A DNA stretch of 42,231 nt, taken from IMG/VR virus record IMGVR_UViG_3300032053_004601, positions 1 to 42,231 of that record. One strand, given 5' to 3'. This DNA is from a virus (lineage: Duplodnaviria > Caudoviricetes). The notes under the pieces were generated by a model. It made no database searches, was not told the DNA's origin, and worked only from the letters and a program-made list of their open reading frames with translations. A program made the translations under genes and the position numbers. Positions 7,254 to 32,225 of this stretch are shown in pieces (the first letter of the stretch is position 1; every line of letters starts with the position of its first letter).

Positions 7254-7265
7254 TAGAATTCTCCT

Positions 7266-17631: not shown

Positions 17632-17922
17632 TTACTTGACTGTCGTCTTCGGATGCCAAACGTCGTACAGACCACTGGCAACAAACCAGACGGAAACAGC
17701 GTACAAAAAGAATGCGCTCAGGGTGAATTGCTTGGTGAAAAGCAAGTAACCGCCCGTAAACGCACCCGATACAAGCATAGAAATAACGTAGCCAAGAATC
17801 TTCTTGGTCGCGTCACTCGCGCCCGTAAAGAGTTTCTTAATGTACTCCGTCACACCCTGAACACTCAGGATGCCCCCAACTCCCGCAAGAATAAGCTGCG
17901 TGATAATCGGGTCATAAATCAT
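17632..17922 (-). CDS. holin-like protein
   Basis: 96 aa, three hydrophobic segments, TEYIK and ASGLYD motifs. Confidence 0.65.
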   Translation of the reverse strand: MIYDPIITQLILAGVGGILSVQGVTEYIKKLFTGASDATKKILGYVISMLVSGAFTGGYLLFTKQFTLSAFFLYAVSVWFVASGLYDVWHPKTTVK

Positions 17923-18194
17923 GATGTACCTCCTATTTGGTATGGTAAAGTAGCGTAAACCCTTCTCCCATCCAAGATTTGGGGAAGAGCATCAAAGAAC
18001 TCTTTTGGATTAGCCGTACTGTAAGACTTTCTCTGGTATACAATTCCGTCATCCAATATTTCTTTAGCAAACCCGTTAGTATCTTTCAAAATAATAATAT
18101 TGGTCCCATCAAATCCAAACGTAGCTATGATATCAACATCATCATCGTCTCTGTGTGGAAAGACAACATCAATTCCAAGCATCTTTAACCTCAT
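17919..18194 (-). CDS. small protein downstream of kinase 2, candidate immunity protein
   Basis: ATGA-coupled to the kinase; resembles 19230..19523. Confidence 0.5.
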   Translation of the reverse strand: MRLKMLGIDVVFPHRDDDDVDIIATFGFDGTNIIILKDTNGFAKEILDDGIVYQRKSYSTANPKEFFDALPQILDGRRVYATLPYQIGGTS

Positions 18195-19228
18195 TCATAC
18201 TTCATAACAAATTTATTATTGCTTTTGTCGATTATTTCTCTAGCCTTCGTATCCCAAAGTCCGGGGTTTCCGGGAAATTTATCCATGGTATTTAAAATCT
18301 TTGCTCTGGTAAAAGAGTTTTCCACATGTCGTATAAGTTCTGGAGGAGACCCTATTTTTTGAGCCATAGCCATGATATCTTTCTCTCTACTGACATACCT
18401 TTCAAGCGCGGCATGAATTTTTGGAGAGATAGGTTGGTTTCCAGATTTACTTTCCGCATGCGTCATATAGTAAAAATCATGAGAAAACGAAAGATTATTA
18501 TCTATGGCAATTACTTTTTTAGTAGACTCGTTTATCAAATAGTTATTCATATGTCTATCACTATTCGCTATAACTATATCCAACGCCATCATTTCGTCCC
18601 ATGACTCTTGCTCAGCCCCGTTCTTACCTGTTTGTACCATACCTACCGGAGTCCCCTTCTCATCCCATCTCTGCCAAGAACCGATACCAAAGTGGTTCTC
18701 CTGAATACGATTTAGTTCATCATCTCCTTCTCCAGCTTGCACAGCTTCAATCCCGGCCTGATATCCCATCTTTATTTCTTCAATGGTCGGACCCTCTCTT
18801 ATTATCGTCTCCGGAACGATATCAAACCCCATTGCTCTGCTTATAGCATAACTCAAAGCATCGCGCATCATGGATGACCCTTTATCCCCACCACCTAACG
18901 CATGCTCTTCCGGTTTATAGGCATAGGTTCTTTCTTCCCCATCCGGACCCCTAAGAACCGTCTTCCACGTTTTGCTAATGCCCTGTTTTCCATTCAGTTT
19001 AATATTGATAATATTACCGTTTAAAATAAAGTCTGCTTTGGCTTGGTCCACAAGAGGTCTAGTTCCTAAAATATCTTTGGGAATCTTTAAACTATTGGCT
19101 ATTCTTCCCTTATCATTACCCCTAGCAGAATTAGGCGGCCTTCCAGAGCCGGGACCACCATTTTTACCCGGAGGACCACCCTCAATGAATCTCTTAGAGA
19201 ATTCTTGAACTACCCTGTAATATCCCAT
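18191..19228 (-). CDS. PI3/4-kinase/HipA-like kinase 2 with FIE|GG leader
   Basis: YKP, GFDIVPET, GSWQRW, DIVIANSDRHMNNYL, AIDNNLSF. Confidence 0.8.
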   Translation of the reverse strand: MGYYRVVQEFSKRFIEGGPPGKNGGPGSGRPPNSARGNDKGRIANSLKIPKDILGTRPLVDQAKADFILNGNIINIKLNGKQGISKTWKTVLRGPDGEERTYAYKPEEHALGGGDKGSSMMRDALSYAISRAMGFDIVPETIIREGPTIEEIKMGYQAGIEAVQAGEGDDELNRIQENHFGIGSWQRWDEKGTPVGMVQTGKNGAEQESWDEMMALDIVIANSDRHMNNYLINESTKKVIAIDNNLSFSHDFYYMTHAESKSGNQPISPKIHAALERYVSREKDIMAMAQKIGSPPELIRHVENSFTRAKILNTMDKFPGNPGLWDTKAREIIDKSNNKFVMKYE

Positions 19229-19229
19229 C

Positions 19230-19523
19230 TCAGTCCTCTATTGATTCCTCATAAGGAGCATTCGACCACGACCTGCTGCCATGGTATTCAAAGGGTATAA
19301 GCTTGATAAACCGTAATCCCTCAGAAGAGAAAACAATATCTCTTGTCTTTTCATCCAAAAGAGGCTCCGCCAGCCGTTTTGTAGCAACAGCCAACGGAAA
19401 GTCTTCCGATGTTTTAATTTCAAACGCAGGCCCGCCAGAAAGGTCCGCACCAATGGCGTAGATGGGTGATTTTCCATCTTCCCACTCTGAGTTAAATATA
19501 TCTACCCGTAACACTTGTCTCAT
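19230..19523 (-). CDS. small protein downstream of kinase 1, candidate immunity protein
   Basis: Abuts the kinase stop codon; EGLRFIKLIPFEYHGSRSWS resembles KEFFDALPQILDGRRVYA in 17919..18194. Confidence 0.5.
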   Translation of the reverse strand: MRQVLRVDIFNSEWEDGKSPIYAIGADLSGGPAFEIKTSEDFPLAVATKRLAEPLLDEKTRDIVFSSEGLRFIKLIPFEYHGSRSWSNAPYEESIED

Positions 19524-20570
19524 TTACCCTCTCCCCAGCACATGCGGCACAGCAGCTCGGTTGTTCCGTATAAAAGTTCCACTATTACCCATATAATACT
19601 GAGTTCTCGGTAAAAACTTACCACTAGTCTTCAGTGCTTCCGCCCGAGTAAATATATCCTCTACTCCACGCATATCTGCTGCGCTCATTTTCAATTTTTT
19701 TGCAGCTTTAAATACTTTTTCCTTACCCGCTAAAAGTTTATTAATAGAATTTATAGATGACTCAGATAAAGGCTTCTCTTCGGGATTAAGTTTAAAATCG
19801 TCAAAAACACTAATTCTAATATATGGACTACCTGTCCGCTGAGGAATACAAAGTCCATTATCTATGGCATGAAGCTTACCATTTTCTTCATCAATCATAA
19901 TATTATTTCCATGCCTGTCCGAATTACCTGTGATTGTATCAAGTAGAAAAAGTTTTTCTACTTGGTCCACATGAGACTCAGCAAACCTAGATTGCATCCT
20001 GTCAAATGCCCCGGCCCCATTATTTCTATCCTCCACCTCTCCGTTTATTCCCTTTATCCACCGTTGCGCAGAACCTATTCCCTTCTCTGGATGAACAAAT
20101 AAATCCGTATCTGGAACTAGTCCAAGCCCCATCGTTCTATCAATAACACAAGCCAAAATCTCTCTTTTATAAAAAGTACCCTTTTCTACAAAATTTCTCA
20201 ACTTTTCACCCCGAGGGATTATTAGATTTCCTTGTCTATCCCTACCCATACATTCTCCGTTCTTTGGTTTGAAGCAAGTTTTTAATTCCTCATCCCCAAA
20301 TTTCATATACAGTTTGAACGAAAGGCTCGTAGCGCGGGTATCAGAATTAGGTTCTGTCCTTGACACCTCTCTAGAAATAAGGACATCCTGAAGATTGCTT
20401 CTATCTTCAGGAGCGGAAATAGTAGGATTCTGTTCCCTCGGTATTCTTCCCATATCATGTCCATACCTACTACCTACGGTTCTTCCTGAACCGGGTCCGC
20501 CTTCTAAAATATCCAAAACACCACGATTGAATCGCAGGCGTAAGATGTCGTAGCTCAATTTATTTATCAC
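19524..20570 (-). CDS. PI3/4-kinase/HipA-like kinase 1 with ILE|GGPGSG leader
   Basis: FKPKNGE, REILA, GLVPDT, GSAQRW, DTITGNSDRHGNNIMI, AIDNGL. Confidence 0.82.
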   Translation of the reverse strand: MINKLSYDILRLRFNRGVLDILEGGPGSGRTVGSRYGHDMGRIPREQNPTISAPEDRSNLQDVLISREVSRTEPNSDTRATSLSFKLYMKFGDEELKTCFKPKNGECMGRDRQGNLIIPRGEKLRNFVEKGTFYKREILACVIDRTMGLGLVPDTDLFVHPEKGIGSAQRWIKGINGEVEDRNNGAGAFDRMQSRFAESHVDQVEKLFLLDTITGNSDRHGNNIMIDEENGKLHAIDNGLCIPQRTGSPYIRISVFDDFKLNPEEKPLSESSINSINKLLAGKEKVFKAAKKLKMSAADMRGVEDIFTRAEALKTSGKFLPRTQYYMGNSGTFIRNNRAAVPHVLGRG

Positions 20571-20697
20571 TCTTTTTTAAAAGAATAGTAATGACAGAAT
20601 CATCATCAGTAGGAAATTCGTCTATTTCCGGCAACATGTCAAGCCACACAGAAAACTCATCGTCTGTTTCGATATCAGGTTCTATATTTTCTCTCAT
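20560..20697 (-). CDS. 45-aa acidic peptide (not in ORF track)
   Basis: Hand translation MRENIEPDIETDDEFSVWLDMLPEIDEFPTDDDSVITILLKKSDK; fills the gap exactly. Confidence 0.55.
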   Translation of the reverse strand: MRENIEPDIETDDEFSVWLDMLPEIDEFPTDDDSVITILLKKSDK

Positions 20698-20698
20698 T

Positions 20699-21085
20699 TT
20701 ATTTTGTAAATAAATGTATAAGCCCCAAAATTACCCCGAGTATGGAAATACCAGAAACGAACCAGAGTTGCCCCTGTGAAGCCTTGCCTTGGTGGCTGGA
20801 CCGAAAGTCTCGGCTTTCCCGCAACTCGTCATCATACACCTTGTGAGAAAGAATTGCTTCCGCCCGTGTGAAATAATTCTTAGATTGGTCGCTCATGGCT
20901 TGTCGAAACTCATTCATAGAAGATAAACGAGCATTCATTACCTCATCGCTCTTAGCCATTTCAGCACACAGTGCGTCAAAACGGGAATCAACGTAATCTC
21001 GCAATGTAACCCAGTCTGCCCTGTGCATAACCCCATCTTTTCCTTGTGCCAATTTACCCATTAATCTTCCCACAAGTAAAAACAT
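20699..21085 (-). CDS. coiled-coil protein with C-terminal TM segment
   Basis: VTLRDYVDSRF...MNEFR...; hydrophobic C-terminus; start uncertain. Confidence 0.55.
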   Translation of the reverse strand: MFLLVGRLMGKLAQGKDGVMHRADWVTLRDYVDSRFDALCAEMAKSDEVMNARLSSMNEFRQAMSDQSKNYFTRAEAILSHKVYDDELRESRDFRSSHQGKASQGQLWFVSGISILGVILGLIHLFTK

Positions 21086-21808
21086 TCATTTTCTATCTCC
21101 TTTTATAAAAAAATCATAGGTGAACGGTCCATCCTCCTTTGTCATGACAATCGGCTTTATCATAATATCTTTTCGTTGAACCTTAATTCCTTTTTGGTTA
21201 AGAAGGTCATGAACTCCGTTAATACCCTCAAGGATTTTCCTATCCTCGTTACCGAACTGAGGAACGGACGCTATAAAGAACGATACTTTTCCACTCCTCT
21301 TGAACCAAGTCATCCCCATTTCTTTAGAAGACAAAAAGTCAACGATGTCTTTTTTAAGCTGTGGAGTTACCTTATCTTCTATTGTAAAATGAGTCATCGG
21401 ACTGGCCTCCGAACCTGTAGCCGCAGTCAGCATCAGGACAGCGTCTTGGTCGTTATCCTTGGCAGTCTGAGCTATCATCGCCCTAGCCTTGCCATTACCC
21501 TTATAAGAGACAACCCATGTCGGCTCCACCCCCCCATATATGCCAGACCCAAAACTAACCTTCGCATCCCTCACACCGGGTATGGCTATGAGGATTTTCT
21601 CAAACTCCTGCATCTTCCTATAGACTTCGTGGGTAGACCCGCCAGCTCGGTAACTCGTTATTCCCACCCTTATTTCAGGCTCGGTTGAACCACTACCGCC
21701 GCCCGAAGTGTACTGGTTTCCCCTGAAAGGATGCCCCGGATTCTCACCCGAATTGGCATTACCCTCAGTGATTTTCCTAAATCTGGGTTTAACAATAACG
21801 TATGTCAT
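21086..21808 (-). CDS. tagged cargo protein, possible SAM-lyase-like domain
   Basis: ITE|GNANSGENPGHPFRGNQYT leader, then GIYGGVEPTW...DQDAVL. Confidence 0.45.
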   Translation of the reverse strand: MTYVIVKPRFRKITEGNANSGENPGHPFRGNQYTSGGGSGSTEPEIRVGITSYRAGGSTHEVYRKMQEFEKILIAIPGVRDAKVSFGSGIYGGVEPTWVVSYKGNGKARAMIAQTAKDNDQDAVLMLTAATGSEASPMTHFTIEDKVTPQLKKDIVDFLSSKEMGMTWFKRSGKVSFFIASVPQFGNEDRKILEGINGVHDLLNQKGIKVQRKDIMIKPIVMTKEDGPFTYDFFIKGDRK

Positions 21809-23085
21809 CTCCCCTCCGCCATCAAAACAGACCCCTCAGGAGTGCGAAAGACAACTCCGTCATTCCTCTGAAGCCAGAAACCCCCTCTTTCTACTCTCTC
21901 TACAACCCCCACCCGAACAAGAACTCCATCTAGTTCCCAAACAGTCGCCCCAACAGGAATTGTGGCTGCAGATATCCCAAACTCCATCATGGCAGCTGGC
22001 CTGATGAGCTGCATTCCGTTATTGACCAGAGTCATTGCGTTACTGACGATATTCTCGACTGCAAATCTCGGGACCGCCCTGTATCCCGTAGCATTCATGA
22101 GGTTTATAATCTGGTCGTTCAGTACCTTCCTCTGAGTTATAAAAAATTCCTGTTCTACTCCCGCAGTAATAGCAATCTTAGCCCGAGAAGCATTCATCTG
22201 GCTAAACAAATCATCAAACAAGTCTGCCACGTTCCCGGTCACGGGCGCACCCTCGGCTGTCGTAACGAATGCAGCAAGCCTGTCCAGCCCCGTTATTATC
22301 TCCGGAGACAACGCAACACCACCAGAGCCGTCTGTGTCCTGCATGTCTTCCCGAACATAAACAAGCCTGCACAAGCAATTGAAAAGACACTCCGTATCCC
22401 CTGATTTTGGGACCGTGGGAAGAGTTTCTTTTGTATATGGAGAATTTGCTGCAATATCAAGACAATCCGAACAGTGGTCCCCAATAGGATGTCCTAGTTC
22501 CCAGTGAATCAAAACCCCATCCCAGTCCTGACCTCCAGCAACGTATCCGTTCCAGAACTGTGCCTCAAGAGAATCCGCATAATCCTCGGCGCGGGCCTCC
22601 GCTCCCTTAAGAGACTCATGATTCCCTATCTGCCCAAAGGCATTCTTTGCATACCGGGATTCCTGCCTTAGAGCAATGTTAGAGAATCGCTCATCCGGCT
22701 CCGTCATTCCCTGTGACTGATAAAATGGATTCCCAGAATGCATGGCCCCAGCATTAAACGCCTGCTTGTAAAAGTCAGGACCGAACTCCTTGAACTCCGA
22801 AAGAGCATCCGCAGGCGATATAACCCCTGCGTCTATTCTTCCAGTCAAGTCCTTCAGCCGCGTAGCAAACTCATCCTTAATATCACTAAACGCCGCCAGA
22901 CCCTGCCTAGCGGCCCCACGGTCAAACCCCCCGATAGACCCCAATGCCTGACTCCATATACCCCTCTCAGTCTCCGCCTTCCACCCACCACCAAAGAGGA
23001 ACTTGCGGCCCTCGGTAAGCCAGAACTTATCAATCTCCTCTGTCAGGACCATCGAGTTACCGGGGATTTTCCTAATCAATCCCAA
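21805..23085 (-). CDS. MuF/SPP1 gp7-like head morphogenesis protein
   Basis: HWELG...DHCSDC...PKSGDTECLFNCLCRL Cys pattern; head module location. Confidence 0.7.
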   Translation of the reverse strand: MGLIRKIPGNSMVLTEEIDKFWLTEGRKFLFGGGWKAETERGIWSQALGSIGGFDRGAARQGLAAFSDIKDEFATRLKDLTGRIDAGVISPADALSEFKEFGPDFYKQAFNAGAMHSGNPFYQSQGMTEPDERFSNIALRQESRYAKNAFGQIGNHESLKGAEARAEDYADSLEAQFWNGYVAGGQDWDGVLIHWELGHPIGDHCSDCLDIAANSPYTKETLPTVPKSGDTECLFNCLCRLVYVREDMQDTDGSGGVALSPEIITGLDRLAAFVTTAEGAPVTGNVADLFDDLFSQMNASRAKIAITAGVEQEFFITQRKVLNDQIINLMNATGYRAVPRFAVENIVSNAMTLVNNGMQLIRPAAMMEFGISAATIPVGATVWELDGVLVRVGVVERVERGGFWLQRNDGVVFRTPEGSVLMAEGR

Positions 23086-23576
23086 CCTCCGGTTCTCATC
23101 TTTGAGACACGATTTAACACCCTATCCACCCTCCTTGCCTGACGAGACCACTGCCTAGCCCACTGGACAGTCGCTTTCTTTGCGGCTGGAGAGGCGGCAT
23201 TAGATGACCGAACTGCCAATATAGCATTCTTGGACCCCTCCTTCCTCCAATCCCTTTCTCCCTTGAGTATTTTTATCTGCTGTACCGTAGAAGGAGTGTT
23301 TTTAAGGGCATTTATAAGTTTATTCAATCTGTCTTTCGTAGTTTCTTTGGGAGGATATGTCCTCGTCTGATTATCGTCGGCCCGGTAAGGACTTTTAGCC
23401 TGAAATCGTCTAAGTTTTAACTTCCGGAGTATTCTATTAACTTCTCTTGGATTTTTTGTATTCTTAATATTCTTAGCCCAAGCTTTAGGCTGAGACAACC
23501 CGGACGGTCTTCTCCCCGAACCCGGACCACCCTCTACCAGAATAGTCTCAAAATCTTCGGGGAATACTTTTCTCAT
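23076..23576 (-). CDS. small basic tagged protein 6
   Basis: MRKVFPEDFETILVE|GGPGSGRRP; K/R-rich. Confidence 0.75.
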   Translation of the reverse strand: MRKVFPEDFETILVEGGPGSGRRPSGLSQPKAWAKNIKNTKNPREVNRILRKLKLRRFQAKSPYRADDNQTRTYPPKETTKDRLNKLINALKNTPSTVQQIKILKGERDWRKEGSKNAILAVRSSNAASPAAKKATVQWARQWSRQARRVDRVLNRVSKMRTGGWD

Positions 23577-23585
23577 TTGTGTCTC

Positions 23586-23849
23586 CTATGGCTTGCTATA
23601 TTTATCTATAGTTCTTTTCCAGCCAGAGGATGTGTCAAAAGACATCCTTACAAGCCTATTAAATCTATGCAGCGCATACTTTTTATTGTTAGAACGAACT
23701 CTATCTCCTACCTTCTTCCACACATCTCCATATCGTTTTTGCTGAGAAGGCCAATCAGCTTTCGCTCCCGCCCTTCCCGGTCTCCGTCCACTACCGGGGC
23801 CACCCTCAAGTAAGACTGTGGTGAATTCAGAAGCATTTACTTTTCGCAT
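23586..23849 (-). CDS. small basic tagged protein 5
   Basis: MRKVNASEFTTVLLE|GGPGSGRRP. Confidence 0.75.
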   Translation of the reverse strand: MRKVNASEFTTVLLEGGPGSGRRPGRAGAKADWPSQQKRYGDVWKKVGDRVRSNNKKYALHRFNRLVRMSFDTSSGWKRTIDKYSKP

Positions 23850-24271
23850 TTCTTCCTCCCAGCTAACTTGACCTTCTTATCTGCTCGGTCAGTCCAGTTT
23901 TTTATAAAAGGTTTGTCCGGCTTCCTATGGAGACCAAAATTCTTCATGACTGTTTCAGAATTTCTAGGTCTGGGCTTTTTTGCACCCTCTTGAAAGTTCT
24001 CCCAGTGGACCCTTCCGCCTTGACGATAACTTACCATTCCAACCGCTTTGTACGCAGCAGCTCTCCAATTTCTATTTCCTTTCGGAGCAATAAGTTTAGC
24101 CTTACCTATTTTCAATGCACCCTTGGCAATATCTTTCTCTCCCGCAGCCCGGAGTCTTCGGACCTTATGGGCCAGATAAGTTCTGGCTGTTGCCCCTCCG
24201 GGCCGTCTTCCAGAACCCGGACCACCTTCTACTAGAACAGTATTGAAATCTTCAACATTTACTTTTTTCAT
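23837..24271 (-). CDS. small basic tagged protein 4
   Basis: MKKVNVEDFNTVLVE|GGPGSGRRP. Confidence 0.75.
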   Translation of the reverse strand: MKKVNVEDFNTVLVEGGPGSGRRPGGATARTYLAHKVRRLRAAGEKDIAKGALKIGKAKLIAPKGNRNWRAAAYKAVGMVSYRQGGRVHWENFQEGAKKPRPRNSETVMKNFGLHRKPDKPFIKNWTDRADKKVKLAGRKKCEK

Positions 24272-24273
24272 AG

Positions 24274-24630
24274 TTAGTCTCCGTACATGGGTCCGTATTT
24301 TTTAGATTTAGCAGAGGCTGACATACTATACCTCTTGCTCCACGCCTTGCTCTTCATCTTCATTCCCTTCGATAATTTTTCGGCGTTTTTCTCCATCCAA
24401 CCAAGAGCCTTGATATATCTTTTTTCTCCAAGTTTTGTTTTGGCATTCCAAGATTTTGCTCTAATGACTACCTGACCAATGTCATCCCTCCTGTTGGCTA
24501 GGGAAATAAGTTTAGAAGCCGTCACTCCACTTGGCCCGACTCCCTTCCTTCCACCTCCCGGTCTACGCCCACTACCCGGACCACCCTCTAGTAAAATAGT
24601 CTTGAAATCAGACACATTTACTTTTTTCAT
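24274..24630 (-). CDS. small basic tagged protein 3
   Basis: MKKVNVSDFKTILLE|GGPGSGRRP. Confidence 0.75.
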   Translation of the reverse strand: MKKVNVSDFKTILLEGGPGSGRRPGGGRKGVGPSGVTASKLISLANRRDDIGQVVIRAKSWNAKTKLGEKRYIKALGWMEKNAEKLSKGMKMKSKAWSKRYSMSASAKSKKYGPMYGD

Positions 24631-24631
24631 A

Positions 24632-24886
24632 CTATCTCCTTTTTCCTTTTCTTAAATTACCCATGCCCAAAAACAAAGCCCGATTAGCCCGCTTTGCTAT
24701 AACCTTATTTATACCAGCCCTACTTCTAGGAGAAAAATAATCCCCACTAAAAAATCTTTCTTTACGAATAGCTTTGAGTTTATCAGCAAGATTTTTACGT
24801 GCGCCTGCATGTCCGGGCCTCGGACCACTACCGGGACCACCCTCAATAAAAACAGTAGTGAATTCAGATGCACTTACTTTTTTCAT
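24632..24886 (-). CDS. small basic tagged protein 2
   Basis: MKKVSASEFTTVFIE|GGPGSGPRP. Confidence 0.75.
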   Translation of the reverse strand: MKKVSASEFTTVFIEGGPGSGPRPGHAGARKNLADKLKAIRKERFFSGDYFSPRSRAGINKVIAKRANRALFLGMGNLRKGKRR

Positions 24887-24887
24887 A

Positions 24888-25193
24888 TTATTTTTCTTTC
24901 TTGGCCCACCTTGCCGCTTTCTGTTTTTCTACCTTATCCCAATTATACGGCTTCACAGATTTTGCATTCAATTTAGCAAGCAGCGAAATTGTAGGAATCT
25001 CTTTGATTGAAGGTATCCCTTTCCCTTTAGGGCTGCTTGTGGCCCACGGAGCAGCGGGCTTTGATTTTCTAGAGAACTTTGGATATACACGCTTACCCCC
25101 ACCCGGACCCCGTCCACCTCCCGGTCTCCTACCACTACCGGGACCACCTTCTACTAGAATAGTATTAAAATCTTTAGTATTTACTTTTTTCAT
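24888..25193 (-). CDS. small basic tagged protein 1
   Basis: MKKVNTKDFNTILVE|GGPGSGRRP. Confidence 0.75.
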   Translation of the reverse strand: MKKVNTKDFNTILVEGGPGSGRRPGGGRGPGGGKRVYPKFSRKSKPAAPWATSSPKGKGIPSIKEIPTISLLAKLNAKSVKPYNWDKVEKQKAARWAKKEK

Positions 25194-25384
25194 GATTCAT
25201 GGTCTCCTTGTTTTAGTATAAATTCTTTTCTTTCTGCAAACTCCTGCTGCTTGCCAGAATTCCAATAAGACACAGGCCGCATGTAGCCAACAACTCGACT
25301 ATAGACCTCAACATGTGCCTTACATCCCGGCTCAGAGCAGCAAGGGACAAGTTCTTTTCCACACTTTGAACAGGTTTCACTCAT
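25190..25384 (-). CDS. stand-alone NrdD C-terminal glycyl-radical-motif peptide
   Basis: CSKC...CC...C, then EVYSRVVGYMRPVSYWNSGKQQEFAER. Confidence 0.8.
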   Translation of the reverse strand: MSETCSKCGKELVPCCSEPGCKAHVEVYSRVVGYMRPVSYWNSGKQQEFAERKEFILKQGDHES

Positions 25385-25977
25385 TTCTCATCCTTTCTAA
25401 TCCACCGTCCCGTGGACGATTTTCCATATTCGTTCTTGAACCTGTACCAAGCCCAAACTCTGGGCATGGGCTTACCTGTACTCAAAGCCTCCATATAATA
25501 CTCTCTCCATTCGTTAATCAAATCAAGTCTATGATTAAACATATTTCTAATAAGAGGAGGAAGGGTGTACAGAGAATCAAACCGCTCCTTGAAAACCATA
25601 AATCCGTGTTCCCGTATCCACTTGAAAATCTTGTCTTGGTCCTCTCCGAACTTATCCTTGTCGAACATGATTGCCGCAACAACAAGATTACCAGAATCGT
25701 TCTTTACCTTTACCGAGTGAATCCCATTCTTCTCGTCTACGATAAAGCTATTGTCCCCAGTTTCTTCTGGGATTTCCTGATGGACGTTACGAACCTTTAC
25801 CAACGTCCACTTCTCTCTCATCTCTGGAGATTGATAATATCTAAGGCCGTCAACTAAAACTGATTCATTCACAGATTCCTCCTCATCCGAATCATCTTTC
25901 TTTTTCTTGGGTTCATCTTCAAACACGATGTCATCTATGTCCCAGACAAACCTACTCAAGTCTCTTTCTTCAGGCAT
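25381..25977 (-). CDS. head-associated hypothetical protein
   Basis: Likely start MPEERD at 25977 (AGGAG RBS). The AIMFDKDKF...IFKWIREHGF segment recalls a small domain seen in phage head proteins; unverified. Confidence 0.55.
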   Translation of the reverse strand: MPEERDLSRFVWDIDDIVFEDEPKKKKDDSDEEESVNESVLVDGLRYYQSPEMREKWTLVKVRNVHQEIPEETGDNSFIVDEKNGIHSVKVKNDSGNLVVAAIMFDKDKFGEDQDKIFKWIREHGFMVFKERFDSLYTLPPLIRNMFNHRLDLINEWREYYMEALSTGKPMPRVWAWYRFKNEYGKSSTGRWIRKDEK

Positions 25978-25978
25978 T

Positions 25979-26206
25979 TTATGTCTCCTTCTTAAAGTTC
26001 TTTCTATACTCTTCGGCTTCCGCCTCAGAAACTTCATGATAACTGTCTGCATCGCTTGCATACCCAGATACGGCATCAAGTGTGCTACTCGCAAATACCC
26101 ATTTTCCACTACTGTCCCATCTCTCGATAATTGGAGGAGAAACATCCATGTCCAATCGTCTCAACGACATATCCTTCTCCCCAATATAACGAATAAAATA
26201 TCTCAT
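25979..26206 (-). CDS. small acidic protein, candidate antitoxin of the RelA/SpoT domain
   Basis: ATGA-coupled to the upstream stop; ERWD...W...YHEVSEAEAEE. Confidence 0.55.
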   Translation of the reverse strand: MRYFIRYIGEKDMSLRRLDMDVSPPIIERWDSSGKWVFASSTLDAVSGYASDADSYHEVSEAEAEEYRKNFKKET

Positions 26207-27966
26207 GCCTTCCCCCAATTCTTAAACACTTCTCCCGCCCTCGCTGGAATCTTAAAATCTTTCCAGTTATCAATCATTTCTTTTTCCAAAGCTGCAATCT
26301 CAGCTGCATCTTTAGAAAGCCTTTGTCTTTCATAAATAGGGTGATTTTTCTCAGCTATGACAACAGACTCCTTCGTATGAAACTGAACTTCAAAAACATA
26401 TCCAGTAGTCGTATCTCTGAACTTAGTATTAATTCCTCCATATGAACCAAGCCTCTCAAAATAATTGCTTTTTTTAACAAGCTCATATCCCTGAGATACC
26501 ATTGTTTTTCCCATATTTTCACACGCGTCATAAAAAGTTTCTTCTGGGGCAATGGTTGTATATCTGACTACATCCTTTATTTCCTTAGCCGCATCATCTA
26601 GTGTAAGAACCCTATCCGGTTCTTCTTCCTTCATCTTCTGTAATTTTCTAGCTATCGACGCTTCTGTCTTTAACCGAGTATCAAACCGATTAAATATAGT
26701 CCCATCCGGACGAGTTATAAAACTACTAAGAGTAGTCCCCGAAGAAGCCGCTGAAAAAAGCATGTTAGCAGAAATAGCAGGTTCTACCGCAGCTCCAGCA
26801 GCATACATTACTTTGGCTAGCTTCAGCCTGTTCTCGTAATCAAATGTCTTTTCCCCGGTTCCCTTCGTGGCATCCTTAGGACTATCCCCACCACCCCCGT
26901 CTCTGGGCGCACTCCCACCCACCTGTCCGGGCCTTCCCGCATGGTCATAATTACCAGACTTCTCATTACCTTCCATCCATATTTTCCTAATGCCATGATG
27001 CTTACTCTTGCCAATCAGGAACCAGTACTTGGGACTCAGTAGTTCTCTAAGAGATTCGTTCTTTTTCTTCCCCACAACTTTAAGAACCAAACGCCCATCA
27101 CTCCCCAAGTTCACAACTTTAAAGCTCAATCCCCTCGGAAGAATAAACTCTCCCTCCCGAAGATAATTTCCTTCTGTGACATTTCCAACATGGGGATTAA
27201 ATTTAAATCCCTGTTTCCCTCCTAAAAATGTGTCAACGGGAAGTATATTTGTACCCTTTGGAACGAGTATTTTTATTTGATGATTATTGAATCCTTTGGC
27301 AAAAGTTAAAGAAGAAGAAGCTGACACATAACCAGCATCAGTAAAAATATCTCCTAATTTAATTTTAAACAACTTAGCCCATGTTCTATCTCCAATACCC
27401 CGGAAAAGAGTAAGATTTTCTTTCAGGCTAAATTTTTCTATAGCAGAATCAATATTTGGTATGGCTGTAGTCGCCAATTTTAATCTGTAGTCTACCGAAG
27501 GGCCACTCTGACCGGACAAAAAAGTTGGGTCTCTAAGATATTTATTTATTGTTACAGAATCAGAGATAGTATACTCACTTACCGACACAGTTTCCTCAGG
27601 TGTAATTGTAAATGGGTCAGGAAGATTTAATAGTTCCAACTGTTTATTTATAAATGGACCTATGTCTAAGCCCAAAGGCATCTTATCATCTATTACCGTA
27701 TAGTCTTTCTCGTTGTCTCCAGTACCTCCACCTGCCGTGTACTGATTTCCCCTAAAAGGATGTCCCTCTGGTTCTCCTGAATTAGCATTACCTTCTTCGT
27801 CCGTATCTTCTTCAAGCTCAAGCGGGTCAAACCCCAACATTCCAACAACATCTTCTGGAGTAACATCCATTTCCTCATCATCTGGGTCCGGGTCTTCAAC
27901 CTCCCACCAGTTGACTTCTACCTCTTCAACATCGCCTATGTGGACATCATAATCAAGTTCGCTCAT
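26203..27966 (-). CDS. polyprotein: acidic leader | ADP-ribosyltransferase | RelA/SpoT-like nucleotidyltransferase
   Basis: ART: INKYLR, LFRG, GYVSASS, REGEFILPRG. RSH: RLKTEASIARK, KDVVRYT, YGGIN, FEVQFHT. Start MSELDY at 27966. Confidence 0.85.
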   Translation of the reverse strand: MSELDYDVHIGDVEEVEVNWWEVEDPDPDDEEMDVTPEDVVGMLGFDPLELEEDTDEEGNANSGEPEGHPFRGNQYTAGGGTGDNEKDYTVIDDKMPLGLDIGPFINKQLELLNLPDPFTITPEETVSVSEYTISDSVTINKYLRDPTFLSGQSGPSVDYRLKLATTAIPNIDSAIEKFSLKENLTLFRGIGDRTWAKLFKIKLGDIFTDAGYVSASSSLTFAKGFNNHQIKILVPKGTNILPVDTFLGGKQGFKFNPHVGNVTEGNYLREGEFILPRGLSFKVVNLGSDGRLVLKVVGKKKNESLRELLSPKYWFLIGKSKHHGIRKIWMEGNEKSGNYDHAGRPGQVGGSAPRDGGGGDSPKDATKGTGEKTFDYENRLKLAKVMYAAGAAVEPAISANMLFSAASSGTTLSSFITRPDGTIFNRFDTRLKTEASIARKLQKMKEEEPDRVLTLDDAAKEIKDVVRYTTIAPEETFYDACENMGKTMVSQGYELVKKSNYFERLGSYGGINTKFRDTTTGYVFEVQFHTKESVVIAEKNHPIYERQRLSKDAAEIAALEKEMIDNWKDFKIPARAGEVFKNWGKA

Positions 27967-29774
27967 GCTAATCCCTTTCTCCACACTGCAAAAATAGTTG
28001 GAGATATATACGCCTGTAGCGCAACCGTAGGGGTGTTACCGAGTCTTGCAGCAACGTGTTTGGCAACCTCCCTGACTGCTTTTTTATACAACTTCATAGT
28101 CTTAGGAACTTGAATTTTTTCCATAAACTTCTTTGCCAAAGTTGTACCCATCAGAGTCCGGAAATCTTTAGTAGTAAACTTCCTGCCATTAAGCGTGTGA
28201 ACAAATCTGTTAAGTTTACCACTGTCTATGCTAAACAGCTTGCCATCCTCTCCAGCGGTGATTTTCCTACCAAGCAAAGTCTTCGCAATGTCTTTATCCT
28301 CAATGAGGACATCCTGCGCAACCCCCTTCTTACCGATAAACTGGAGCCGGACCTCTTCTCCAACCTGTACAACATGCCGCCCCTCAAGAGTCGTGGCCCC
28401 GTAAGACTTGACCTTGGCTACAATCTCCTCATCCGAACCGGGCCGAAGACCCGTCTTCATGATAAGATTCGACACAACCGCCGCTTCCCTAGTATCCGCG
28501 TCCCGACTGCGCATTTTCCTGCCTATTTCCTTCTCAATTCCTGCCTGTTTAACTTCCAAGGACTTTATTCGGGCAAACTTCTCTCTAGCCTGCCCCTTCT
28601 TGAACTTCTCACTGTACAGATACTGGTCCCGGCCCGCAGCGTCCTTACCTACAACCAACAACTCCCCCTTGGGGTCCGGGTTAAATCTAACTCCCGTCCA
28701 CGCGGGCGGTATGCGGATTTTCCTAATGTGCTTTGGCAGGTTCTCTTTGTCTTTAGCATCAACGAATCCCTTGGCTACCCCCCCGCCTGCGGGCGAGTCC
28801 CCGCGAGTGTCAAGATTCGTCGCTCCTGATTCTCTCCCAGTATCCTTTCCAGTGCCTGAACCGGGAGTCCGACCAGAACCATCTCCGCCTTCAGCTAAAG
28901 ACTCACCGACCTTGGCTTTCCTGTTCTGGTCTACTACTTTTACACGAAGAAATAGTACGTTCTGTCCATCCACTTTCCTATCTTTAAGTCCGCCAACAAC
29001 TTCATACTTAGTTCCCCGGTCCAGCACAAATTCAGTTTCCCAGAAGGCTAAAGCATTTTGAGAATTTTTAGATGGATTGTATTTGTTAGCCCTATAAATA
29101 TCTGGATTGAATGCCTTCGTTCCCTTAGGGGCAAGTATTTCCAACATAAAATATGAATGCTGTGAAAAATCAATAGCTGTACGCGGAGAAATAGAAGTAG
29201 AACTATATCCCATATCTCTATATGTCGTTCCAGCTCCCTTTTCACGAAGAGCTTTAAACAAACCCTCCTTTACCCCCCGGTAAAGGACAGTTGGTTTCTG
29301 TAAACTTTGCTTATCAAGAATCTTATCCATATCTTCTATAGTTTTAAAGGCAATGGGGTCAATTGGCGCACCATATCTATCTTTCTCCAGTTCAGGATGA
29401 CGAAGATGATAATTAATAAGATTATAATAACCACCCTGATATGAAGTTGCGGCTAAAGCAGACTCTTCTCCCGGAACGGATATCGGACCATGTGCAGAAA
29501 GTATATATTTTTCTACAGAAGAACTCATCTCTCGGGTCATATGAAACATGTCCATATTTCCAGACTCTCCCGGAAATCTCTCATACCCTGCATCCGAATC
29601 CTTAGGAAGACTACCACCCTGATGCCCCTGAATTCCAAGATGGTTGTAATTACCAGACCCAGCACTACCCTCCGCAACCCCGACTGTTTCCTCTTTGGAC
29701 GTAACAACAGGTTCAACCAGCTCGATGTCTCCGGAGTTCCAACCAAACTTATCTATATTAATCATTATGTCCAT
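27963..29774 (-). CDS. polyprotein: leader | ADP-ribosyltransferase | DNA topoisomerase IB
   Basis: ART: INYHLR, LYRG, GYSSTS, WETEFVLDRG. Topo IB: IPPAW, GRDQYLY, GLRPG, FIGKKG, KDFRT, LGNTPTVALQAY. Start at 29774 or 29765. Confidence 0.88.
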   Translation of the reverse strand: MDIMINIDKFGWNSGDIELVEPVVTSKEETVGVAEGSAGSGNYNHLGIQGHQGGSLPKDSDAGYERFPGESGNMDMFHMTREMSSSVEKYILSAHGPISVPGEESALAATSYQGGYYNLINYHLRHPELEKDRYGAPIDPIAFKTIEDMDKILDKQSLQKPTVLYRGVKEGLFKALREKGAGTTYRDMGYSSTSISPRTAIDFSQHSYFMLEILAPKGTKAFNPDIYRANKYNPSKNSQNALAFWETEFVLDRGTKYEVVGGLKDRKVDGQNVLFLRVKVVDQNRKAKVGESLAEGGDGSGRTPGSGTGKDTGRESGATNLDTRGDSPAGGGVAKGFVDAKDKENLPKHIRKIRIPPAWTGVRFNPDPKGELLVVGKDAAGRDQYLYSEKFKKGQAREKFARIKSLEVKQAGIEKEIGRKMRSRDADTREAAVVSNLIMKTGLRPGSDEEIVAKVKSYGATTLEGRHVVQVGEEVRLQFIGKKGVAQDVLIEDKDIAKTLLGRKITAGEDGKLFSIDSGKLNRFVHTLNGRKFTTKDFRTLMGTTLAKKFMEKIQVPKTMKLYKKAVREVAKHVAARLGNTPTVALQAYISPTIFAVWRKGLA

Positions 29775-30519
29775 TCCCCCGGCTAAGAACACGAAGGACT
29801 GCCGTTTTTTCATAAACCGATTCGACTACAAATTTAATTCCTCTATTCAAACATACTTCATTCTCTTCATCCTCATCTATTTTTCCAATCTCCGGGACAG
29901 ATATAGCCGGAGTTCCCTTCGGAACATAAATCTTAACGGAATAGGAAGGACTAGAACCTTCCCTTTGTATATTACGAAAATGGTCTCCTACTATCTTCTG
30001 CGACGAACACGACACAAAACCTTTATCTATAAATGTCTGTCCGACTTTAAGTTCCATACCTCCGACACCACGATATAAAACAGTATCTTTTGTAGTAAAA
30101 CTTTTTTTCATAACTGAATCCATAACAGGAATCAACTTATCAGCTATTATTTGCGTCCATTTATTATCTTTAAAATCTTCTGGATGGGTTCCTCTAAGGC
30201 TATTATTAACCATCGCATGCCCATCAGAAACATACTCTTTAACCAACTCTAATTCTGATTCTAATATATTTTTTGACTCCGCCAAACCGATAGTCCACTT
30301 TGTAGCCTCACGAACTTTAGCTCTGTCATCCCAATTAGTAATCTGTGGAGATTCGGATTCTGCATTCTCAGCTCCAGTACTGCCACCTACTGTATATTGA
30401 TTTCCTCGGAAAGGATGACCTTCTGGTTCTCCCGAGCCTTCTCCGCCCTCAATAACAAGTTTTTTCTTCCCTTTTTTACCGGGAATCCATTTTGGGGACA
30501 AAAAACCAACAAGTTCCAT
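29758..30519 (-). CDS. ADP-ribosyltransferase (VIP2/Alt-like) with VIE|GGEGSG leader
   Basis: VNNSLRG, LYRG, GFVSCS, EENEVCLNRG. Confidence 0.85.
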   Translation of the reverse strand: MELVGFLSPKWIPGKKGKKKLVIEGGEGSGEPEGHPFRGNQYTVGGSTGAENAESESPQITNWDDRAKVREATKWTIGLAESKNILESELELVKEYVSDGHAMVNNSLRGTHPEDFKDNKWTQIIADKLIPVMDSVMKKSFTTKDTVLYRGVGGMELKVGQTFIDKGFVSCSSQKIVGDHFRNIQREGSSPSYSVKIYVPKGTPAISVPEIGKIDEDEENEVCLNRGIKFVVESVYEKTAVLRVLSRGNGHND

Positions 30520-32225
30520 CAGTAAAGCTCCCGCCTCTTCCCTCTAAGTATTTTCTTAATAGCATCTTCGGTTCGCATAACAAGTCTACGCATATTAGGG
30601 TCAGCTAAGACCTTTCTACGAATCTCATCCAACTCAGAAGGAGTCGCCGTGCGAAGACGAGCGGCTGTCCGGGCGGTGATTTTCCTAAATCCCTCCTCCG
30701 GAGGAGGCTCGGGCTGCCCGTCAGCCGACTGTCCCTGTGACTGGTCCTGTTGCATGCTCAACTGCATAGCCATTTGCTGCATCTGCATCTCTTGGTCCTT
30801 TGCCGCAGCTTCTTCTTCCGCATCTTTTATCATCTGTAAAAGCTCTTCGGCCTCTGCAGGTGACAAATTCATGAACATTGTGCGTATAATCCAGTCTGTC
30901 GGCAGGTTTATCCCCATATTTCTGTAGACACTTAGCAAATTGGCCTTTAAGTTCTCTATATTCCACTTAGATTCCTCATCCGGAGTGCCTATCTCAGGAA
31001 ACCTGATTCTCCAATTGAAAGAATTAGGGTTCACCCCCGCCATAATCCAACTTATCTTGTAGATTTTCCTTAACCCCTCTGCTAAAGCATACCTATGTCT
31101 CTTAATCATCTTGACAAAAGCCACGTTCTGCTGGTACAGAGTCGCCTTTGAATTCACATCCCGCTCAAACCCCAAGTACGCCTTGGGAACCTTCGTTCCA
31201 GAGAACAATTTGTTATGAAAGTGTTCGACATCCCGTATTTCACCAAGGTGAGTTACCCCACCAATCATCTGATAGTCGCCTCCGGGCGCATCCTTTCGCA
31301 CGGGTATGTAAATATCTTCCATAGGAATCAGCGGGTCTTTCTCTGTCTTTAGTTTTCCCTCGGCTGAAAAATACCAACGCTTCTGATTCATAAGTCTGAT
31401 TTTATTAATGTGCTTGGCAGCCTCTTTTTCTCCCATCCCCGTAACGTCAATCTTCCAAACTCCCTTTCTATTCGCTTGGGCTATTCTAGTAACAACAAGT
31501 GTATCCTCAAGCATACGCTCGACCCTGTAAGCCCTGCGAAGTTTTGAGAACAAGGAGAAATTAACCCCGTAATCATTATCCCCAATCTTGAAATGAGCAA
31601 TTTCCCACGGGTCGAACTCCGCAACCACGCGAGAAATTGTATCGTCCTTTTGTATATACGGTTTTTCAGTATTGATAGAACCGTCTTTCAGATAATTGCA
31701 GAAGACCTGCTTCGGAGGAAGAAATTTAAGCTTGGTTATCGTCTCCGGAGTGCATACTATCTCGTAAAAGGCATCTCCATAGAGAAGCATGTTCCTAGTA
31801 ATAAACCAAATCTTCTCTTTGAGTTGGAGGTCTTCCTCCATTGCTTCGATTATATCAGACGCTTTTTCCTGCCCCTTTTTAGGAGTCTTTTTAACGTCCT
31901 GTTGTGTCTCATCATCAAAAATAACAGAGTACGAATCCGTAAGGTCAGTCGCAGACGAAACTACAAAGTCCGCATGGACATCAAGAGCCGACGAGAGTTC
32001 GACAATTTCCGTGTCCATCTCTTCATAGTCAACATACTTCTTTAATCTGTCATCTGATATTTCAAAAACAGAACCCTGTGACCAATCAAGCTTCGGCCTC
32101 TCTGTCGTTATATCGTCCTGAGCTACCTGTGTCGGTTCTGTCTTACGAAATACATTCTGAATCCGTTTTATTAAACTTTGTCTTTCCGGTTGTCTTTCAT
32201 CGGATACAAGAAAATTATCTGGCAT
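30519..32225 (-). CDS. portal protein, T4 gp20-like
   Basis: YEEMD, YGDAF, MLEDTLVVTRIAQ...WKIDV, EDIYIP, LGEIRDVEHFHNKLFSGTKVPKAYL. Confidence 0.9.
   Translation of the reverse strand: MPDNFLVSDERQPERQSLIKRIQNVFRKTEPTQVAQDDITTERPKLDWSQGSVFEISDDRLKKYVDYEEMDTEIVELSSALDVHADFVVSSATDLTDSYSVIFDDETQQDVKKTPKKGQEKASDIIEAMEEDLQLKEKIWFITRNMLLYGDAFYEIVCTPETITKLKFLPPKQVFCNYLKDGSINTEKPYIQKDDTISRVVAEFDPWEIAHFKIGDNDYGVNFSLFSKLRRAYRVERMLEDTLVVTRIAQANRKGVWKIDVTGMGEKEAAKHINKIRLMNQKRWYFSAEGKLKTEKDPLIPMEDIYIPVRKDAPGGDYQMIGGVTHLGEIRDVEHFHNKLFSGTKVPKAYLGFERDVNSKATLYQQNVAFVKMIKRHRYALAEGLRKIYKISWIMAGVNPNSFNWRIRFPEIGTPDEESKWNIENLKANLLSVYRNMGINLPTDWIIRTMFMNLSPAEAEELLQMIKDAEEEAAAKDQEMQMQQMAMQLSMQQDQSQGQSADGQPEPPPEEGFRKITARTAARLRTATPSELDEIRRKVLADPNMRRLVMRTEDAIKKILRGKRRELY

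What the first reader, a model, noticed from the sequence alone, without database searches (positions are those of the whole stretch)
17919..30519. Candidate protease-tagged capsid cargo system: 14 E|G motifs in 12 unrelated genes between portal and prohead protease
SEEN: the motif x-x-E|G-[G/N/S]-x-x-S-G (usually preceded by hydrophobic residues) precedes every enzymatic or basic domain in the island. Approximate Glu positions: 30449 (VIE|GGEGSG), 29671 (VAE|GSAGSG), 28891 (LAE|GGDGSG), 27794 (DEE|GNANSG), 26972 (WME|GNEKSG), 25150, 24843, 24587, 24228, 23806, 23533 (all xxE|GGPGSG), 21765 (ITE|GNANSG), 20503 (ILE|GGPGSG) and 19182 (FIE|GGPPGKNGGPGSG, an expanded variant). I did not see it in other genes of the window. 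KNOWN: T4 gp21 cleaves after Glu in (I/L)-x-E sites; T4 internal proteins and the Alt ADP-ribosyltransferase are packaged and gp21-processed. This phage encodes gp20/gp21/gp23-like proteins. INFERENCE: a modular address-plus-cleavage tag loads many effectors (3 ARTs, topo IB, RelA/SpoT-like, 2 kinases, possible SAM lyase, 6 basic proteins) into the head. Cleavage would expose a common Gly-rich N-terminus that may act as an ejection signal. Gly-rich motifs of this kind may occur in MuF/polyvalent phage proteins; I cannot confirm novelty.
Basis: partly seen in the sequence, partly recalled or inferred. Interest (0 to 1): 0.93.

Follow-up and report, generated by a model that had tools for sequence, protein, structure and literature searches.

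The report
Portable glycine tag on capsid cargo
Twelve head-region genes of this uncultured phage carry a short glycine-rich tag right after a glutamate that its T4-type head protease likely cuts; other phages place the same tag after their own protease's predicted cut residue, or at the very start of the protein where no such protease is found, so it is likely a portable label for proteins carried inside the capsid.

Summary
In detail: 14 Glu|Gly-rich motifs in 12 genes (strict motif 13 in the island, 0 in 40 other genes; shuffles 0.17). The Gly-rich tail is not private to this phage. It occurs in hundreds of phage loci, and the residue before it follows the head protease: E with S77 (6/6 contigs), K with S78/XkdF (22/24), D with DUF2213 (21/22), L with Mu-type (3/3); 10/10 held-out loci agree. 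That residue also ends the protease domain in most classes. In five records with no assemblin-type protease detected, the tag starts straight after the initiator Met. So the Glu is a predicted gp21-type cut site and the tail a separate, portable signal at the N-terminus of each mature cargo module, likely holding it in the head for ejection. Predicted cargo: three ADP-ribosyltransferases, topoisomerase IB, a (p)ppApp-synthetase-type domain, two kinases, a likely SAM lyase, six basic proteins. No cut, packaging or partner is measured. I found no paper on the tag. This scan noted the tag and the residue switch before on other DNA (e1-5899475, e1-5960527); my one look-up for the leaderless form returned nothing.

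The parts
30519..32225 (-). T4 gp20-type portal, upstream boundary of the island
   Evidence: PF07230 E 5.5e-44
29758..30519 (-). cargo gene: 24-residue leader, tag, ADP-ribosyltransferase 1
   Evidence: PF03496 E 6e-14; R-S-E motifs present
30388..30450 (-). Glu24 plus tag (hybrid: GGEGSG head, GHPFRGNQY body)
27963..29813 (-). cargo gene: tag-ART2-tag-topoisomerase IB
   Evidence: PF03496 E 9.7e-13, PF01028 E 6e-26
29610..29672 (-). Glu plus tag before ART2
28830..28892 (-). internal Glu plus tag before topoisomerase IB
26203..27984 (-). cargo gene: acidic leader, tag-ART3-tag-(p)ppApp-synthetase-type (Apk/SAS) domain
   Evidence: PF03496 E 2.3e-14; PDB 8vx3 SaSAS E 2e-15; RYT and GxN motifs (PMC12226406 passages)
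27799..27966 (-). acidic 56-residue leader, candidate partner or inhibitor of the topoisomerase IB encoded just upstream
   Evidence: homologues follow topoisomerase IB in L046, L061, L090, L096; weak complex support
27733..27795 (-). Glu plus tag before ART3
26911..26973 (-). internal Glu plus tag before the Apk/SAS domain
25381..26145 (-). untagged head-module gene shared with relatives
   Evidence: homologues beside the portal in 5 of 8 relatives mapped
24888..25193 (-). basic protein 1: shared 15-residue leader, Glu15, tag
   Evidence: pI 11.0 after the cut
24632..24886 (-). basic protein 2: shared leader, Glu15, tag
   Evidence: pI 12.0
24274..24630 (-). basic protein 3: shared leader, Glu15, tag
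   Evidence: pI 10.7
23837..24271 (-). basic protein 4: shared leader, Glu15, tag
   Evidence: pI 11.2
23586..23849 (-). basic protein 5: shared leader, Glu15, tag
   Evidence: pI 11.3
23076..23576 (-). basic protein 6: shared leader, Glu15, tag
   Evidence: pI 11.8
21805..23085 (-). untagged MuF-like core head gene; fused to tagged cargo in some relatives
   Evidence: homologue in 8 of 8 relatives mapped; nearest named Atlas family PF04233 at 0.94, a lead; no MuF Pfam hit in 9 of 9 homologues
21086..21808 (-). cargo gene: leader, Glu15, tag, likely SAM lyase
   Evidence: Atlas PF23780 clusters at 0.85-0.86, a lead; a tagged gene in G061 hits PF23780 at E 8e-7
19524..20570 (-). cargo gene: leader, Glu23, tag, PI3/PI4/HipA-like kinase
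   Evidence: PF00454 E 3e-12
19230..19523 (-). untagged acidic 97-residue gene after the kinase, candidate immunity protein
   Evidence: position and pI 4.7; no homologue in fetched loci
18191..19228 (-). cargo gene: leader, Glu16, expanded tag, PI3/PI4/HipA-like kinase
   Evidence: PF00454 E 2.7e-7, PF20613 E 3.7e-5
17919..18194 (-). untagged acidic 91-residue gene after the kinase, candidate immunity protein
   Evidence: 33% homologue follows a tagged kinase in L257
15534..16817 (-). gp21-type (S77) prohead protease with C-terminal scaffold; His75, Ser130, Asp160; invariant Glu18 and Glu177 flank the domain
   Evidence: PF03420 E 2.5e-17; T4 gp21 5JBL E 5.5e-10; alignment A1
14332..15534 (-). 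gp23-type major capsid protein with predicted propeptide cut after Glu72
   Evidence: PF07068 E 1.5e-60; junction Glu in 15 of 15 related capsid proteins

Best explanation
The 14 motifs are each made of two separable parts: a Glu that the phage's gp21-type prohead protease likely cuts, and a Gly-rich tail that would then form the N-terminus of every mature cargo module and likely keeps that module in the head for ejection with the DNA. Steps: (1) late genes between portal and protease make precursors (shown: gene order and domains). (2) They enter the prohead; for the six basic proteins the shared 15-residue leader may act like T4's capsid-targeting sequence (inferred, about 0.8 that these are virion proteins). 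(3) The protease cuts after hydrophobic-x-Glu, as predicted for its own ends, the scaffold and the capsid propeptide, removing leaders and splitting two-domain precursors (inferred, about 0.85). (4) Each released module begins with the tail, which binds something common to unrelated heads, most simply the packaged DNA, so cargo stays while scaffold fragments and leaders leave (inferred; about 0.5 for a post-cut role, about 0.3 that the partner is DNA). (5) Untagged acidic partners (genes after the kinases; the leader after topoisomerase IB) would restrain the enzymes in the producing cell and be left behind (inferred, about 0.5).
For: Motif 13 vs 0.17 expected, 0 outside the island. Residue before the tag follows the protease in 68 contigs holding both: S77 E 6/6; a second unnamed clade E 4/4; S78/XkdF K 22/24; DUF2213 D 21/22; Mu-type L 3/3; phrog_760 L 6/9 (families anchored). 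21 of 23 protease clusters (45% identity) concordant, 0 of 100000 permutations. 10 of 10 held-out genome loci agree. The protease domain is followed by the same residue in most classes. Capsid junction Glu in 15/15. T4, phiKZ and SPN3US proteases cut after Glu (PMC9026906 passages); P1 gp23 is cut after Glu120 (PMC9024508 passages). Cultured phage Rb1 has the tag after Asp, with Asp at its protease end and capsid junction. Internal tags are as conserved as first tags (0.96, n=55; 0.94, n=114), median spacing 249 residues. The tag follows the start codon directly in G046 (10/10), G058 (4/4), G059 (1), G061 (3, plus 1 with one extra residue) and G060 (2); G058 and G061 have scaffold-plus-coat heads with no protease gene found.
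Against: No cut, packaging, ejection or binding is measured, and the phage is uncultured. 20 of 91 contig groups had tags but no protease assigned and 3 had a protease but no tag caught; these were left out. Four of the ten E-class contigs came from a scan that required Glu. The permutation is not a tree-based test. Exceptions exist (R, V, A, N, H, M before some tags; Asp two residues before Glu at 27795). The tag is dispensable for the lineage: 4 of 8 mapped relatives with the same backbone have no tagged cargo, and most S77-relative loci show none in the flank fetched (many are short). The leaderless records are 8-79% complete, so a protease elsewhere is not excluded, and G060 has an S49 protease. 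One G061 tag has an extra residue after Met and one window tag is expanded, so a strictly free Gly-1 is not required. DNA binding has no direct support.
Confidence: 0.6

Rival explanations
1. The tail is the prohead loading address itself. It binds a head component (portal, MuF-like protein or scaffold) before maturation, at any position in the chain; the cut only frees domains, and per-domain repeats are left over from fusion of singly tagged genes.
For: In leaderless phages the tail is the only shared feature of the cargo genes. PF04233 MuF is found in 19 of 37 tag-bearing records and in G058 and G061. SPP1 gp7 binds the portal (PMC5576092 passages).
Against: The same tail occurs with T4-, HK97-, Mu-, P22/SPP1- and P1-type head proteins that share little sequence; 18 of 37 records show no PF04233 hit (the search misses divergent MuF such as the window's own). 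Internal copies are as conserved as first copies, though one address per chain would be enough.
Confidence: 0.27
2. The tail is only an extended protease-recognition and flexible-linker sequence (the side after the cut), with no role afterwards.
For: Gly-rich stretches suit protease access; every window copy follows the predicted cut.
Against: The capsid, scaffold and protease ends carry the cut residue without the tail. The tail is conserved for up to 20 residues, with His, Arg and aromatic positions at 84-100%, is shared by unrelated proteases, and occurs after the initiator Met where no cut is needed.
Confidence: 0.06
3. The motif is a DNA-level recombination joint for swapping cargo modules, kept as a nucleotide repeat.
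For: Island content varies widely among relatives; identical codons among tag copies are somewhat above expectation (181 of 422 vs 131).
Against: Ser codons switch between TCN and AGY and most third positions vary; the residue before the tag tracks the protease.
Confidence: 0.04
4. The tagged proteins are not virion cargo but act late in the producing cell, the tail being a localisation or stability signal there.
For: No virion data exist; kinase-plus-small-gene pairs resemble toxin-antitoxin pairs.
Against: Prohead proteases act within the prohead (PMC9026906 passages); the tag sits inside protease-, MuF- and DarA-containing head polypeptides elsewhere.
Confidence: 0.03

Closest known systems
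T4 internal proteins IPI-III and Alt with the capsid-targeting sequence (CTS), processed by gp21 (PMC9026906, passages)
   Same: gp20/gp21/gp23-type head; short N-terminal propeptide ending in hydrophobic-x-Glu; small basic proteins and ADP-ribosyltransferases as cargo.
   Different: In T4 the shared signal lies before the cut and mature IPs diverge; here a conserved tail lies after the cut, recurs inside two-domain chains, and is shared with phages of other head types. No PHROG family hit for the six basic proteins.
MuF polymorphic toxins (Jamet et al. 2017, PMC5576092; Apk2, PMC12226406; passages)
   Same: MuF-like gene in the portal module; ART and (p)ppApp-synthetase domains; small untagged genes after the enzymes; in L257 a MuF-like domain is fused to a tagged kinase.
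   Different: Here the enzymes are in separate genes from the MuF-like gene; the passages read describe no junction motif or protease processing ('motif' 0 and 'processed' 0 occurrences in PMC5576092).
Polyvalent proteins of phages (Iyer et al. 2017, PMC5512222; passages)
   Same: Several effector domains in one head-associated chain, predicted to be injected; tag-bearing chains elsewhere hit ART-PolyVal.
   Different: That paper proposes metallopeptidase autoprocessing; 'glycine' and 'linker' do not occur in its main text. Its supplementary alignments were not seen.
Phage P1 Dar system (DarA processing, DarB targeting signal; PMC9024508, passages)
   Same: Head-packaged, partly processed cargo; P1 Pro is a distant S77 relative (local HMM E 7.6e-6) and gp23 is cut after Glu120; the P1-like phage Rb1 carries the tag in its DarA-like protein.
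   Different: The DarB signal is in its first 30 residues with no consensus among Dar proteins; P1 DarA has no such tag.

Membership tests
T4 gp21-type (S77) prohead protease | PF03420 domain above cut-off, similar to gp21 | tested here: met
   63.4 bits vs cut-off 27; 5JBL E 5.5e-10
T4 gp21-type (S77) prohead protease | His-Ser-Asp catalytic triad | tested here: met
   His75, Ser130, Asp160 invariant in 15 homologues and aligned to the gp21 positions (that 5JBL carries Ala substitutions at two of them is recalled)
T4 gp21-type (S77) prohead protease | cuts after Glu in head proteins | not testable with these tools
   predicted from conserved Glu at protease ends and capsid junction and [LIVF]xE excess in scaffolds (78 vs 55, z 3.7)
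T4 internal protein / CTS system | short N-terminal propeptide ending in hydrophobic-x-Glu on small basic proteins | tested here: met
   six genes with a shared 15-residue leader and pI 10.7-12.0 after the cut
T4 internal protein / CTS system | sequence homology to IPI-III or Alt | tested here: not met
   no PHROG or Pfam hit for the basic proteins; ARTs hit Alt-like phrog_802 only weakly (E 1e-5 to 2e-6)
T4 internal protein / CTS system | leader sufficient to load a reporter into heads | not testable with these tools
   needs experiment
MuF polymorphic toxins | N-terminal MuF domain fused to a C-terminal toxin | tested here: not met
   MuF-like gene 21805-23085 is untagged and separate from the enzymes; the fusion is seen in relative L257
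MuF polymorphic toxins | a MuF-family domain in the portal module | tested here: inconclusive
   no PF04233 hit in 9 homologues; nearest named Atlas family PF04233 at 0.94; Cys-pair motifs visible
MuF polymorphic toxins | immunity gene after the toxin | tested here: inconclusive
   small genes follow both window kinases and those of L257, L269, L270; neutralisation untested
Polyvalent proteins | two or more effector domains in one phage late protein | tested here: met
   ART plus topoisomerase IB; ART plus Apk/SAS
Polyvalent proteins | large-polyvalent-associated domains or MPTase | tested here: not met
   no such Pfam hit in island proteins at E 0.01
Apk / (p)ppApp synthetases | syn2 RYT and syn3 GxN signatures | tested here: met
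   both present, signatures from PMC12226406 passages; 8vx3 match; activity untested
SAM lyase PF23780 | profile match above cut-off | tested here: inconclusive
   no Pfam hit, no PDB hit; Atlas 0.85-0.86 and TM 0.46

The most novel reading that the evidence does not exclude
Tailed phages of unrelated head types (T4-, HK97-, Mu-, P22/SPP1- and P1-like) share one portable N-terminal peptide that ties any protein to the packaged genome for co-ejection; it is unmasked by whichever head protease the phage has, or by Met removal when it has none, and the same cut strips off inhibitor modules so that enzymes are armed only inside the sealed head.
Probability: 0.35. Interest if true: 0.92.

Novelty: new variant of a known kind. 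Interest (0 to 1): 0.76.

Why it matters
How proteins are chosen for, kept in and ejected from phage heads is known for only a few signals (T4 CTS, P1 DarB). A 7-20 residue tail shared across head types gives a direct handle on that question and a searchable marker for injected phage effectors. The residue before it also predicts the unmeasured specificities of several prohead protease families (Asp for DUF2213, Leu for Mu-type, Arg/Lys-x-Leu/Ala for phrog_760). A cultured carrier (Xanthomonas phage Rb1) makes the cut testable by virion mass spectrometry.

Tried and rejected
DNA-repeat origin: rejected as the main cause. 'Pfam family fixes the cut residue': rejected in strict form, since a non-S77 clade also goes with Glu and Rb1, a P1-like Pro relative, has Asp. 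ClpP (PF00574) as the missing protease of unassigned records: 0 of 22. A named Pfam family for the tag: none in 11 tag-bearing proteins at E up to 1 or in the window. Cultured carriers by tblastn of short tags: 2 of 4 queries found nothing and 2 found only Rb1 (E 9 and 1); low-complexity masking makes these blanks weak. PDB searches for the SAM-lyase-like domain and the MuF-like protein: no hit. Met before the tag in G019/G055, L386, L387 and L395 was rejected as a start codon because long in-frame sequence precedes it. Close relatives L008/9, L015, L054 and copies are at least 99.97% identical to the window and were not counted as independent.


Full report
1. Observation. Six-frame translation finds all 14 motifs at the stated Glu codons, in 12 minus-strand genes between the portal (PF07230) and the S77 protease (PF03420) and gp23-type capsid gene (PF07068). 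The strict pattern E-G-x3-S-G occurs 13 times in the 18 island genes and 0 times in the 40 other genes that I called; shuffles give 0.17. Ser codons alternate between TCN and AGY, so selection is on the peptide. Eight fetched loci are at least 99.97% identical to the window, which supports the assembly but adds no independent case.

2. What the tagged genes encode. Three ADP-ribosyltransferases (PF03496) with R-S-E motifs, a topoisomerase IB (PF01028) and two PI3/PI4/HipA-like kinases. The RelA/SpoT-like domain matches the SaSAS structure 8vx3 (E 2e-15) and has the RYT and GxN signatures given for (p)ppApp synthetases of MuF toxins (PMC12226406, passages); it also hits the C-terminal domain of XopAD-type models far below their cut-offs. 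The SAM lyase is a lead only (Atlas 0.85-0.86; no Pfam or PDB hit). Six proteins of 84-166 residues share a 15-residue leader and are very basic after the predicted cut. The untagged gene 21805-23085 is MuF-like by position, Cys motifs and an Atlas lead (0.94), without a Pfam hit.

3. The tail is widespread and the residue before it changes. Scans that did not fix the preceding residue found 55 stretches with the GHPFRGNQYT form and 178 of an estimated 230 with the GGPGSGN[FW]GH form (that extension of the pattern was recalled, not read from the window). The residue before the tail was D 86, K 80, L 49, E 36, A 18, others 29 among distinct sites (which also covered the ten loci of the Glu-requiring scan), and nearly uniform within a contig. 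Logos of 277, 95 and 41 distinct tails show three related forms with His, Arg, Gly and aromatic positions conserved for up to 20 residues; three window tags are hybrids of two forms.

4. That residue follows the head protease. Pfam searches of 49 records gave S77 in 4 (all E), S78 in 3 (all K), DUF2213 strongly in 13 of 13 D records and weakly in 6 L/A/H/N records; XkdF-type S78 in 3 of 26 further-tested records, all K; Mu-type in 3 of 22, all L; ClpP in 0 of 22. With local profiles grown from these hits, 68 of 91 contig groups had both tag and protease: S77 E 6/6 (36 of 38 sites), an unnamed clade (phrog_15531/29592) E 4/4, S78/XkdF K 22/24 (101 of 114 sites), DUF2213 D 21/22 (61 of 62), Mu-type L 3/3, phrog_760 L 6/9 with A, N, H, M in the rest. 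Twenty groups had no protease assigned and three no tag caught; most of the 630-base loci were not used. Four of the ten E contigs came from the Glu-requiring scan, and three (the window among them) were picked by their protease. After clustering proteases at 45% identity, 21 of 23 clusters were concordant and 0 of 100000 permutations reached this; kinship between clusters was not modelled. Ten loci from bacterial genome contigs (nine contigs, two of them duplicates), fetched afterwards, all agreed.

5. Independent sign that it is the cut site. In DUF2213, many S78, phrog_760 and Mu-type proteases the catalytic domain is followed by the same residue that precedes the tags; XkdF types that end at the domain give no such test. 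In the window's family Glu18 and Glu177 flanking the protease domain are invariant in 15 homologues, the triad aligns with T4 gp21, scaffolds are enriched in [LIVF]xE, and the capsid junction Glu is kept in 15 of 15. T4, phiKZ and SPN3US proteases cut after Glu (PMC9026906 and PMC10052503, passages). P1 gp23's measured N-terminus (PMC9024508, passages) follows Glu120. The P1-like cultured phage Rb1 (PQ569993) has the tail after Asp in its DarA-like head protein, and Asp at its protease end and at the matching capsid position: the tag follows the genome's own predicted motif, not the family label. Lys cleavage by HK97 gp4 is recalled; my search did not confirm it in a passage (listing only).

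6. A natural experiment: tails with no leader. In G046 all 10 and in G058 all 4 copies follow an ATG or GTG, mostly with a ribosome-binding site and within about 20 bases of the upstream gene's stop; G059 has 1, G060 2, G061 3 plus one with a single extra residue. G058 has MuF, scaffold and P22-type coat genes in a row; G061 has an SPP1-type portal, MuF, tagged genes, a DUF4355 scaffold and a capsid gene. Six local protease profiles found nothing in G058, G059, G060, the first 20 kb of G046 or the 34 kb of G061 that I fetched; whole-record Pfam searches of G046 were also blank. G060 has an S49 protease. These records are 8-79% complete. Removal of Met before Gly by methionine aminopeptidase (established knowledge, recalled) would give the same N-terminus that the protease is predicted to make here. 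Other Met-preceded tags were internal.

7. Mechanism. One address would load a whole chain, yet tails recur before each domain (median spacing 249 residues) and later copies are as conserved as first ones. That favours a role after the cut, once per product. The tail is shared by heads whose portal, scaffold and capsid families differ, and PF04233 is found in only 19 of 37 records (insensitive to divergent forms), so DNA is the simplest common partner; this is inference only. A role as the loading address is the main rival. The island is optional and variable: of 8 relatives mapped, three have Glu-tagged cargo, one a variant tail, four none; among 93 S77-relative loci my pattern found Glu tags in four (many loci are short).

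8. Partners left behind. The acidic leader of gene 26203-27984 resembles segments directly after topoisomerase IB in L046, L061, L090 and L096; two other homologous loci showed none. A predicted complex scored 0.52 against a best control of 0.00, verdict weak support; runs agree in at least 38% of contacts, partner pLDDT at least 52; the mark was reached by 116 of 157 solved and 2 of 215 mismatched pairs, but at 0.60 or under by only 18 solved pairs and both mismatches. Small untagged genes follow both window kinases and those of three other loci.

9. Prior knowledge. Closest are T4's CTS system, MuF toxins, polyvalent proteins and the P1 Dar system. Full-text searches for the motif strings returned 17 papers, none about phages by the 14 listed; topic searches showed no description of this tail in their listings; passages of PMC5512222, PMC9503650 and PMC5576092 do not mention it. 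I read passages only, saw no supplements (Iyer 2017's domain alignments may bear on novelty), and the library lacks most subscription papers. This scan noted the tail and the residue switch earlier on other genomes; one look-up for the leaderless form was empty.

10. Verdict. Real, well above chance, and a new variant of known head-cargo systems. Cut after Glu about 0.85; virion cargo about 0.8; post-cut role of the tail about 0.5. Interest 0.76.

Noticed in passing
window 27799-27966 (-): Acidic 56-residue segment with a conserved W...DD...T..V..LGFDP pattern that follows topoisomerase IB in four other phages; candidate DNA-mimic inhibitor, here fused as the leader of the next cargo gene.
   Followed up: partly
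window 30450-30500 and 26973-27040 (-): The leader of ART1 and the internal linker before the Apk/SAS tag share an LSPK.W..GK-like stretch, a second possible leader family.
   Followed up: no
window 29675-29774 (-): The leader before ART2 has an F-x-W-x-x-G-D-I stretch; similar stretches occur near N-termini of tagged genes in L025 and L043. Possible partner of the ART upstream.
   Followed up: partly
window 5849-6118 (-): 89-residue gene after the capsid and glycosyltransferase block ends with a degenerate E-G-S-G-S near its C-terminus.
   Followed up: no
window 6168-14231 (-): Block between capsid and neck genes: radical SAM, sulfatase, methyltransferase, LicD, cytidylyltransferase and two glycosyltransferase-like genes, suggesting virion or surface glycan modification; similar genes follow the capsid gene in relatives.
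   Followed up: no
window 25190-25384 (-): Stand-alone 64-residue NrdD C-terminal zinc-ribbon gene inside the island, untagged.
   Followed up: no
L096:3650-4600 and L396:215-2760: Other short tail families in the same positions: NDVHDERGRF-like and HPRGEDGKF-like after Lys/Asp, and QPRVPAG..GGQW-like right after the start codon beside leaderless Gly tags.
   Followed up: no
L261:128-9098: Close relative with variant tails in which one residue separates Glu from the Gly-rich part, and a 41% homologue of the SAM-lyase-like domain.
   Followed up: partly
L370:19095-19952 and L370:35314-36966 (phage Rb1): P1-like phage whose predicted maturation motif has shifted from Glu (P1) to Asp across protease, capsid and DarA-like protein.
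   Followed up: partly
L224:10779-12719, L225:7263-9179, L232:2318-3781: Unnamed prohead-protease clade (no Pfam protease hit; phrog_15531/29592) that goes with Glu tags and PF25209 capsids.
   Followed up: partly
L058, L076/L252, L101, L106, L110: Tag-bearing records, two of them complete (G019, G022), with K or mixed K/L/M before the tag and no protease found by six Pfam families or local profiles; possibly further protease families.
   Followed up: partly
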